Below are positions 1 through 267 of a stretch of 64,000 bases of DNA, piece after piece. The notes below the pieces were generated by a model. It was not told the origin of the DNA. It made no database searches and was given only the letters and a program-made list of their open reading frames with translations. Made by a program: the position numbers and the translations under genes. Source of the stretch: the human T2T-CHM13v2.0 reference genome, Homo sapiens; NCBI RefSeq assembly GCF_009914755.1, contig NC_060941.1, one strand, 5' to 3'. Position 1 is the stretch's first letter. The number at the start of each line of letters is the position of its first letter.

Positions 1-233
1 TTCTTCTTTGTAGCCACTTTCTGATTCTTTCAATCAGAATTAAAGATTTTTGTTTCTGATTCTCCTATTCTGGATGATAATGTATATAAGCACAGATAGT
101 GTTCTTTGTCCTTTGCAAATAATTCTGTAATATTTTTGCAATTCATTTCTCACCCTTTCTAAGGAGAGGTGATTGATGTCCAGAACTTAGACAATTTCTA
201 GCAAGCGAAGGGATTGAGCTCACAGAAGAAGAA

Positions 234-267
234 ATGAAGGAGTTGATGCCTCATTTGACATTTAACG
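234..267 (+). CDS. EFCAB3: EFCAB3 long-isoform first coding segment ([11 protein letters not shown])
   Basis: ATG at 234; donor AACG|GTGAGG after 267; phase 1, in frame with the next exon. Confidence 0.8.

What the first reader, a model, noticed from the sequence alone, without database searches (positions are those of the whole stretch)
164..267. EFCAB3 first exon looks like a frameshifted internal EF-hand-repeat exon: scar of fission of a giant ancestral gene
Seen in sequence: a pyrimidine-rich splice acceptor (ttctcaccctttctaag|G) at 163/164 precedes the ATG at 234. Read in phase 1 from the acceptor the exon gives GEVIDVQNLDNF then TAG (199-201). The ATG frame reads [23 protein letters not shown] but has a TGA at 174-176. 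Restoring one base in the T run at 195-197 makes a 105-nt phase 1-1 exon. With the 54-nt exon at 3760 it encodes a 53-aa unit, [53 protein letters not shown], a degenerate EF-hand pair. Recalled knowledge: this resembles the tandem repeats of EFCAB13. Mouse has one very large Efcab3 (Gm11639) gene between Itgb3 and Mettl2, whereas human has ITGB3-EFCAB13 and EFCAB3-METTL2A far apart on 17q. Inference: human EFCAB3 is the surviving 3' end of a split gene, restarted at internal methionines.
Basis: partly seen in the sequence, partly recalled or inferred. Interest (0 to 1): 0.8.

Follow-up and report, generated by a model that had tools for sequence, protein, structure and literature searches.

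The report
Frameshifted relic exon heading human EFCAB3
The first exon of the long human EFCAB3 transcript is a former internal repeat exon of a giant ancestral gene that lost one base on the human lineage, but the splitting of that gene into EFCAB13 and EFCAB3 was already published in 2018.

Summary
Window 164-267 follows an intact 3' splice site. It reads EVIDVQNLDNF then TAG in one frame and [23 protein letters not shown] in the next. It is 104 nt long, whereas nine paralogous exons just upstream are each exactly 105 nt. Read through, its 34 residues are 34/34 identical to an internal segment of the chimpanzee 961-aa and orangutan 3786-aa EFCAB3 proteins. The exon is therefore a former internal phase 1-1 repeat exon with a 1-nt deletion.

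The interpretation needs three corrections:
- The fission of the giant Efcab3-like gene into EFCAB13 and EFCAB3 in Homininae is already in print (Lilue et al. 2018).
- The exon is not at the break. Eighteen unannotated relic exons with open frames and AG/GT splice sites lie between -66.4 kb and -0.8 kb upstream of the window.
- The chimpanzee model keeps this exon intact, so the deletion is a later, human-lineage event, not the fission scar.

The upstream relic exons changed 18 residues on the human side against 4 on the orangutan side, which fits decay after the split. The short isoform's start methionine is also the annotated start in many mammals with an unsplit gene, so it probably predates the fission. 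Whether the deletion is fixed in humans, and whether position 163/164 is a transcription start or a used acceptor, could not be tested.

The parts
147..163 (+). Ancestral 3' splice site: pyrimidine tract and AG (162-163) in front of the exon
   Evidence: The acceptor has the same form (y-rich tract then aag|G) as the nine upstream 105-nt paralogous exons. RefSeq's transcript start (163) lies 1 nt from it.
164..267 (+). Former internal 105-nt phase 1-1 repeat exon, now 104 nt; annotated first exon of alternative EFCAB3 transcripts
   Evidence: The read-through peptide is 34/34 identical to internal segments of the chimpanzee and orangutan proteins.
166..201 (+). 5' third of the exon in the ancestral frame: EVIDVQNLDNF, closed by TAG 199-201
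   Evidence: Orthologues read EVIDVQNLDNFLASEG... continuously.
193..200 (+). Site of the 1-nt deletion (T run 195-197 or a neighbouring base)
   Evidence: MAFFT places its only gap after 'gacaat'. Orthologues read N-F-L-A here without a gap. The exact base is not resolvable without ape DNA.
198..266 (+). 3' two thirds of the exon in the present coding frame: LASEGIELTEEE then Met 234-236 and [10 protein letters not shown]. The part before Met 234 is 5' UTR of the long isoform
   Evidence: Joined to the downstream exons, the frame stays open for 502 codons from 198, which is 490 codons from the ATG.
268..273 (+). 5' splice site gtgagg
3760..3813 (+). 54-nt phase 1-1 exon, the second half of the 53-aa unit ([17 protein letters not shown])
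   Evidence: It follows directly in the chimpanzee, macaque and other orthologues.
7914..7964 (+). 51-nt phase 1-1 exon ([16 protein letters not shown]), the last short exon before the unique EFCAB3 part
   Evidence: It is 16/16 identical to macaque residues 1423-1438.
12925..12927 (+). ATG of the short (selected RefSeq) isoform, an internal methionine of the ancestral frame (..[12 protein letters not shown]..)
   Evidence: and the hub table (coding from 12925). Orangutan residues 3341-3373 span it. 33 of 71 short mammalian models start at this methionine.

Best explanation
Window 164-267 is the human orthologue of one internal coding exon of the ancestral giant EFCAB3-like gene (mouse Gm11639; orangutan LOC100445724). 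The ancestral exon was 105 nt and phase 1-1. It belonged to a tandem array in which 105-nt and 54-nt exons alternate, each pair encoding a 53-aa degenerate EF-hand-pair-like unit.

A rearrangement in the common ancestor of human, chimpanzee and gorilla split that gene into EFCAB13 (5' part) and EFCAB3 (3' part). This is published. After the split, the 3' fragment still carried at least 18 further repeat exons upstream of this one.

On the human lineage, after the separation from chimpanzee, one base was lost in or next to the T run at 195-197. A reading frame coming in from the acceptor now ends at TAG 199-201. The upstream repeat exons are thereby cut off from the EFCAB3 frame. The exon now supplies only 5' UTR plus an internal methionine (ATG 234), which opens the 490-codon long isoform.

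Shown here: the exon's ancestry, the 1-nt length deficit, its intact state in the chimpanzee, orangutan and other mammalian protein models, the upstream relic exons, and the excess of amino-acid changes on the human side.

Inferred: that the deletion is fixed in humans; that the relic exons are no longer translated; and that the short isoform's internal promoter predates the split.
For: 1. Exon anatomy was read directly.
2. All nine upstream 105-type paralogous exons are exactly 105 nt with AG/GT sites, and the window exon is 104 nt. The alignment with five of them places the single gap at the T run.
3. The read-through peptide plus the next two exons (69 aa) is 98.6% identical to chimpanzee P0003 residues 449-517 of 961. 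It is 95.7% identical to macaque P0006 residues 1370-1438 of 1880. It is also internal in bat, tree shrew, rhinoceros, fox, cat, vole and marmot models.
4. The exon's own 34 residues are 34/34 identical to orangutan and chimpanzee. 52 of 137 stored proteins match without a gap across the break, and 51 of these matches are internal.
5. P0003 carries no 'LOW QUALITY PROTEIN' label, although the database keeps that label on other entries such as P0136.
6. Orangutan P0118 (3786 aa) maps colinearly: residues 10-983 to C17:48.198-48.303 Mb (EFCAB13) and residues 2726-3786 from window -66435 to 46252. Residues about 984-2725 matched neither stretch.
7. There are 18 upstream relic exons (9 of 105 nt and 9 of 54 nt), all with AG/GT sites and open in phase 1-1. 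Joined, they give 1431 nt, or 476 codons, with no stop.
8. Amino-acid changes since the orangutan split: upstream exons 18 on the human side against 4 on the orangutan side over 476 sites (binomial p 0.0043); downstream EFCAB3 5 against 5 over 500 sites.
9. Lilue et al., bioRxiv 10.1101/235838, describe the 188-exon gene and the full-length form in orangutan, macaque, bushbaby and squirrel monkey. They also describe a roughly 15-Mb rearrangement in Homininae that deleted internal repeats (passages read). PMC8662591 restates this (passages read).
Against: - Dating the deletion rests on protein models only; no ape DNA was available. It also rests on a single chimpanzee cluster (19 member sequences, one contig). 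No gorilla or bonobo long model was found.
- Only one human genome (CHM13) was examined, so a polymorphism is not excluded.
- Human and chimpanzee branches show equal numbers of changes in the upstream exons (7 against 7 over 303 sites). The frameshift therefore left no measurable extra decay, and the relic exons may already have been idle in both species.
- Comparing the upstream 18:4 with the downstream 5:5 directly gives only p 0.096 (Fisher).
- The EF-hand assignment of this unit is below Pfam's cut-off.
- Whether position 163/164 is used as a transcription start or as an acceptor in human testis was not testable.
Confidence: 0.88

Rival explanations
1. One reading: the frameshifted exon is itself the scar of the gene fission. 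It would mark where the 3' fragment begins, and the frameshift would belong to the break.
For: It is the first annotated exon of human EFCAB3 in RefSeq (hub table). The gene fission is real.
Against: Eighteen orthologous repeat exons continue colinearly for 66 kb upstream of it. The chimpanzee shares the fission, yet its 961-aa model holds this exon intact and internal.
Confidence: 0.04
2. The 1-nt deletion is a private or polymorphic allele of CHM13, or a homopolymer error of the assembly, not a fixed human trait.
For: Only one human assembly was read. The lesion lies in a short T run.
Against: From ATG 234 the frame gives 490 codons. That equals the length I recall for the curated long human isoform, but this is recalled and not tested, and the long isoform would start at the same ATG with either allele. 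A run of three or four T is not a hard case for a telomere-to-telomere assembly (general knowledge).
Confidence: 0.1
3. The deletion is older and shared by human, chimpanzee and gorilla. On this reading the chimpanzee protein model reads through it only because the annotation pipeline corrected the frame.
For: The chimpanzee model is a computer prediction. Its first 77 residues are Alu-derived, which shows that the model is not curated.
Against: The model's name has no 'LOW QUALITY PROTEIN' tag, although the database keeps that tag for another entry. The cluster holds 19 member sequences on one contig.
Confidence: 0.07
4. On usage: position 163/164 is not a true transcription start. Human transcripts would begin further upstream, splice through relic exons into the acceptor at 163/164, meet TAG 199-201, and then be degraded or restart translation at ATG 234.
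For: The annotated 5' end lies within 1 nt of an intact ancestral acceptor (hub table). The upstream 54-nt exon at -884..-831 has a good donor and ends in G, as does the first base of the RefSeq exon. The chimpanzee model splices exactly this way. No TATA-like motif sits at the usual distance; the only one is about 75 nt upstream, at about 83-90.
Against: No transcript data could be consulted. RefSeq lists no human exon upstream (hub table). An extra 5' G is also a common by-product of copying capped RNA (general knowledge). Lilue et al. report only low EFCAB3 expression in testis, with the full-length promoter at EFCAB13.
Confidence: 0.35

Closest known systems
Efcab3-like / Gm11639 (mouse) and its full-length primate orthologues, with the Homininae split into EFCAB13 and EFCAB3 (Lilue et al. 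2018, bioRxiv 10.1101/235838; later in Nature Genetics, the journal being recalled)
   Same: Same locus and same event: a giant gene of repeated EF-hand units between ITGB3 and METTL2, broken by a roughly 15-Mb rearrangement with loss of internal repeats. My mapping of the orangutan protein onto the two human loci reproduces it.
   Different: The passages I read do not mention this exon, its 1-nt deletion, the 18 relic exons upstream of annotated human EFCAB3, or the human loss of three further exons. The paper's supplementary figures 12-14 could not be opened and may show some of this.
Canonical EF-hand pair of EFCAB3 itself (window exons 21764-21907 and 23515-23586)
   Same: Same helix-loop-helix pair layout. 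The phase-1 intron sits at the same place in the second loop..ADID|R|DGKVNF.. compared with ..LTFN|G|NGKINV...
   Different: The canonical pair scores 59 bits on EF-hand_7/8 and keeps the acidic loop residues. The repeat unit scores 20.6 bits and has T/N/N and S where the loop needs acidic ligands (read), so calcium binding is doubtful. This last point is inference.
Lineage-specific disabling of exons by a single frameshift, followed by use of a downstream methionine (partial unitary pseudogenisation)
   Same: One small indel cuts an ancestral N-terminal region off an otherwise conserved reading frame.
   Different: Here the region that was cut off had already lost its own promoter and 5' half through a chromosomal rearrangement, and was already changing faster than in the orangutan.

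Membership tests
Internal repeat exon of the ancestral EFCAB3-like (Gm11639-type) gene | Orthologous peptide lies inside the long proteins of other mammals, flanked by the neighbouring exons in the same order | tested here: met
   The 69-aa read-through is 98.6% identical to chimpanzee residues 449-517 and 95.7% to macaque residues 1370-1438. 51 of 52 ungapped orthologous matches are internal.
Internal repeat exon of the ancestral EFCAB3-like (Gm11639-type) gene | 105-nt length, phase 1-1, AG acceptor and GT donor, as in the paralogous exons | tested here: met
   The acceptor and donor are present. The length is 104 nt against exactly 105 nt in all nine upstream paralogues. The feature is therefore met apart from the single-base loss that is the finding.
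Internal repeat exon of the ancestral EFCAB3-like (Gm11639-type) gene | Still spliced as an internal exon in human transcripts | not testable with these tools
   No transcript data were available. RefSeq annotates it as a first exon (hub table).
EF-hand domain pair (Pfam PF13499 / PF13833) | Score at or above the curated gathering cut-off | tested here: not met
   The intact chimpanzee unit scores 20.6 bits on EF-hand_7 (cut-off 30, E 5.7e-4) and 15.7 bits on EF-hand_8 (cut-off 28). It resembles an EF-hand pair but does not qualify as one by Pfam's rule.
EF-hand domain pair (Pfam PF13499 / PF13833) | Acidic calcium ligands at loop positions 1, 3, 5 and 12 | tested here: not met
   The second loop reads [12 protein letters not shown], whereas the canonical EFCAB3 loop reads [12 protein letters not shown]. 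The loop numbering is from general knowledge of EF-hands.
Product of the Homininae EFCAB13/EFCAB3 gene fission | A single outgroup protein maps with its N-terminal part to EFCAB13 and its C-terminal part to EFCAB3 | tested here: met
   Orangutan P0118 residues 10-983 map to C17:48.198-48.303 Mb and residues 2726-3786 to window -66435..46252, both on the + strand and colinear.
Human-specific (post-chimpanzee) lesion | Intact in chimpanzee and the other apes, broken in all humans | tested here: inconclusive
   It is intact in the chimpanzee and orangutan protein models. No gorilla or bonobo long model was found. No ape DNA and only one human genome were available.

The most novel reading that the evidence does not exclude
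A single-base deletion on the human lineage removed roughly 450 or more residues of EF-hand-like repeats from an EFCAB3 protein that the chimpanzee still makes (its 961-aa model), leaving humans with only the 490- and 438-residue forms. The mouse orthologue affects brain size when knocked out (Lilue et al.). This would then be a human-specific protein truncation with a possible phenotype, beyond the ape-wide fission that is already known.
Probability: 0.1. Interest if true: 0.6.

Novelty: already known. Interest (0 to 1): 0.3.

Why it matters
The main claim, that human EFCAB3 is the 3' remnant of a giant gene split in African apes and humans, has been in print since 2018, so the finding does not open a new question.

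- The annotated first exon of the long human isoform is a former internal exon.
- The apparent human-chimpanzee difference at that exon is one lost base.
- About 66 kb of unannotated sequence upstream of human EFCAB3 still holds 18 relic repeat exons with open frames and AG/GT splice sites. On the human side these have changed far more than in the orangutan.

This is useful for annotation. The relic exons could be mistaken for a novel gene, or be spliced into test transcripts. It is also a clean example of how a fission remnant decays. It would matter more only if the chimpanzee's long form proved to be translated and functional.

Tried and rejected
- Whole-genome DNA search with window 140-290, and protein search with the 23-aa piece P0001, found only the window itself. 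The paralogues are too short and too diverged for that route, so I fetched DNA and searched it locally.
The region beyond -90 kb, with USP32P4 and TBC1D3P2 (named in the hub table), was therefore not read, and the breakpoint was not located more closely than between -90 kb and -66.4 kb.
- Four giant orthologues searched against 154 kb around EFCAB3 and 140 kb around EFCAB13 found no relic exon between -90 kb and -66.44 kb and no extra one in the introns.
- Macaque P0006 searched against the whole human genome found nothing for its residues 1-838. The tool warned that a stricter first look was used, so this is a floor and not proof of deletion.
- I looked for a shared duplicated segment at the two breakpoint sides (the EFCAB13 tail against -90..-64 kb). 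Only Alu- and L1-sized matches of 71-84% identity appeared.
- Mapping the chimpanzee model's first 77 residues onto human DNA failed. They are Alu-derived and match many Alus, the best at 77.5%.
- A search for gorilla, bonobo or human long protein models gave none: 18 proteins were listed, and the chimpanzee was the only African ape.
- The piece window 177-266 alone gave no EF-hand match in Pfam, only a chance ComZ hit below cut-off.
- Literature searches for EFCAB3 with 'human-specific' (1 paper, unrelated to this exon) and with 'gene fission' (0 papers) found no description of the frameshifted exon. Searches found 2 and 3 papers.

Full report
**Observation.**
- A pyrimidine tract and AG at 162-163 precede the exon (ctcaccctttctaag|GA).
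- Codons from 166 give EVIDVQNLDNF, then TAG at 199-201.
- The frame of ATG 234 gives [23 protein letters not shown] and has TGA at 174-176 upstream.
- The donor is G|gtgagg at 267/268.
- The next exon, 3760-3813, is 54 nt, phase 1-1, and reads [17 protein letters not shown].
- RefSeq's exon begins at 163, one base before the exon start that the acceptor implies.

**The exon is one base short of its family.** The window's genome can be searched, so I located ITGB3 at C17:48.147-48.152 Mb with Pfam PF00362. I then fetched 140 kb downstream of it (the EFCAB13 region) and 90 kb upstream of the window. A local tblastn with the read-through unit hit several plus-strand stretches upstream of the window, the best at E 3e-6 (EKVDTRNLENFLENMGIKLTEDKEMQLLNNLPVDG). 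Five such exons, cut at their AG and GT, are each exactly 105 nt, whereas the window exon is 104 nt. MAFFT aligns all six with one single-base gap, in the window exon, at the T run after 'gacaat'. A T of the run or the adjacent C could be the lost base, and only ape DNA can tell which.

**Orthologues show it was an internal coding exon.**
- The protein database holds mammalian EFCAB3 models.
- The read-through peptide with the next two exons (69 aa) is 98.6% identical to residues 449-517 of a 961-aa chimpanzee model (P0003). It is 95.7% identical to residues 1370-1438 of an 1880-aa macaque model (P0006). It is also internal in bat, tree shrew, rhinoceros, fox, cat, vole and marmot models.
- The exon's own 34 residues are 34/34 identical to chimpanzee and to the 3786-aa orangutan protein P0118 (residues 3274-3307).
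- Of 137 stored proteins longer than 100 aa, 69 gave a hit. 67 of those hits are ungapped across the break, 52 of them at 60% identity or more, and 51 of the 52 lie more than 30 residues from the N-terminus.

**The fission is real and already published.** Lilue et al. (bioRxiv 10.1101/235838; passages read) describe:
- a 188-exon, 5874-aa mouse gene (Efcab3-like, Gm11639) between Itgb3 and Mettl2, made of repeated EF-hand domains;
- the full-length form in orangutan, macaque, bushbaby and squirrel monkey;

PMC8662591 restates this (passages), and PMC6323946 mentions the gene's discovery (passage). I reproduced the mapping independently. Orangutan residues 10-983 map colinearly, at 86-100% identity, to C17:48.198-48.303 Mb. 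Residues 2726-3786 map from window -66435 to 46252. Residues about 984-2725 match neither stretch. A whole-genome search with the macaque protein found nothing for its residues 1-838, though at reduced sensitivity.

**The exon is not at the break.** Between -66,434 and -831 relative to the window start lie 18 exons that RefSeq does not annotate; per the hub table, the only row there is the pseudogene RPL36AP47. Nine are 105 nt and nine are 54 nt. They alternate, all have AG and GT sites, and all are open in phase 1-1. Their starts are:
- 54-nt exons: -66434, -61643, -55227, -48102, -38666, -29179, -17078, -15191 and -884;
- 105-nt exons: -65727, -61126, -48971, -41972, -29945, -25986, -19337, -16109 and -14146.

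Joined, they make 1431 nt, or 476 codons, with no stop. The exon at -884..-831 (ETAVDLNDLMDAVSYIK, ending in G) is the one that splices to the window's acceptor in the chimpanzee model (..SYIK-G-EVIDVQ..). No relic exon was found between -90 kb and -66.44 kb. Relative to chimpanzee, macaque and orangutan, the human sequence lacks three exons (chimpanzee residues 219-288) between -25882 and -19337. Together these are 210 nt, so the frame is kept.

**Timing.** The chimpanzee shares the fission, yet its model reads this exon intact and internally. The model has no 'LOW QUALITY PROTEIN' tag, although the database keeps such tags (P0136). The simplest reading is that the 1-nt deletion arose on the human lineage after the split from chimpanzee. 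It is therefore a second, later event and not the fission scar. The caveats are that the dating rests on one chimpanzee model cluster, that no ape DNA was available, that no gorilla or bonobo long model was found, and that only one human genome was read.

**Are the relic exons still under constraint?** I polarised amino-acid changes with macaque (P0111).
- Upstream exons since the orangutan split: 18 changes on the human side and 4 on the orangutan side over 476 sites (binomial p 0.0043).
- Downstream EFCAB3 part: 5 and 5 over 500 sites. The direct contrast of the two ratios is weaker (Fisher p 0.096).
- Human against chimpanzee in the upstream exons: 7 against 7 over 303 sites, two of the chimpanzee changes lying at the edge of its Alu-derived first exon. 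Downstream the counts are 2 against 4 over 500 sites.

The pattern fits loss of constraint in the common ancestor after the fission, in both species, with no extra decay attributable to the human frameshift. The intact frames of the 18 exons therefore say little about function, because so short a time leaves most short exons open by chance (inference).

**What the unit is.** The intact chimpanzee unit gives EF-hand_7 E 5.7e-4 (20.6 bits, cut-off 30) and EF-hand_8 E 0.013. The alignment spans the break position. The canonical EF-hand pair of EFCAB3 (window exons 21764-21907 and 23515-23586) scores 59 bits. Its phase-1 intron sits at the same loop position (..ADID|R|DGKVNF.. against ..LTFN|G|NGKINV..), which supports common descent. 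The unit's second loop lacks the acidic ligands, so 'degenerate EF-hand pair' is a fair description, but formal Pfam membership is not met.

**Relation to EFCAB13.** Direct likeness of the unit to EFCAB13 exons is weak: E 0.018-0.069 at 31-32% identity over 28-39 residues. EFCAB13 exons are not of the 105/54-nt type. In the orangutan protein the 106-aa double unit forms a near-continuous array over residues about 1425-3272. There is one more block at 1205-1321, and there are two isolated matches at 188-304 and 640-759 in the EFCAB13-equivalent part. The exon therefore belongs to the tandem array that humans mostly lost, not to EFCAB13's own repeats.

**Start codons.** Both human start codons are internal methionines of the ancestral frame. 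ATG 234 lies in ..[11 protein letters not shown].., and ATG 12925 in ..[12 protein letters not shown]... However, 33 of 71 mammalian models of 300-530 aa start at the methionine equivalent to 12925, including afrotherian, bat, rodent, carnivore and lemur species. Another 9 of 71 start at the one equivalent to 234. These are annotation models and not experiments. They suggest that a nested short transcript existed before the fission, so EFCAB3 need not have been 'restarted' by it.

**Not resolved.**
- Whether position 163/164 is a real transcription start. The annotated 5' end coincides to within one base with a conserved acceptor, and the only TATA-like motif lies about 75 nt upstream, which makes me suspect upstream starts. 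No transcript data were available.
- Whether the deletion is fixed in humans, and exactly where the breakpoint lies.
- The supplements of the bioRxiv paper could not be opened and may already show the relic exons.

**Verdict.** The evolutionary headline is already known. The 'scar of fission' reading should be replaced by 'later human-lineage frameshift in one of about twenty relic exons'. Interest is modest.

Noticed in passing
upstream of the window, C17:63173567-63239170 (window -66434 to -831); loci L025, L017-L022: There are eighteen unannotated relic exons (nine of 105 nt and nine of 54 nt) of the ancestral repeat array. All have AG/GT sites and open frames, and together they give 476 codons without a stop.
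   Followed up: yes
window -25882 to -19337 (locus L021): The human sequence lacks three consecutive repeat exons (54+105+51 nt, chimpanzee residues 219-288) that chimpanzee, macaque and orangutan proteins have. The loss keeps the frame. No remnant was found by tblastn.
   Followed up: partly
G000 C7:129778349-129780950, + strand: This is a second copy of the last two EFCAB3 coding exons, on chromosome 7. It scores as well against the macaque protein as the chr17 copy. It is presumably part of the METTL2A/METTL2B duplication; that name is recalled and not tested.
   Followed up: no
C17:48237540 (locus L009, EFCAB13 large exon): In CHM13 an in-frame TAG stands where the orangutan protein has lysine (..KLQ*PAV.. 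against ..KVQKPAV..), inside an otherwise 89%-identical 179-codon match. It could be a nonsense allele of EFCAB13 in this genome or a frame not used in human; I did not check which.
   Followed up: no
protein P0003 residues 121-163 (human equivalent about window -38640 to -29841): The junction of a 54-nt and a 105-nt repeat exon matches Pfam B5 (PF03484, tRNA synthetase B5 domain) above its cut-off: 35.2 bits against 28.6. PF03484 is also precomputed for most of the long orthologues. It is probably a chance likeness of a repeat, but it is unexplained.
   Followed up: no
protein P0003 residues 1-77: The N-terminus of the chimpanzee 961-aa model is Alu-derived and matches many Alus in the human region, the best at 77.5%. 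The model's start is therefore an exonised Alu and of doubtful reality.
   Followed up: partly
window 10498-10558: The non-coding first exon of the selected RefSeq transcript lies inside what was an intron of the ancestral gene, between the 7914-7964 and 12908-12998 exons. The short isoform therefore uses an internal promoter, and short models in many mammals suggest that promoter is old.
   Followed up: partly
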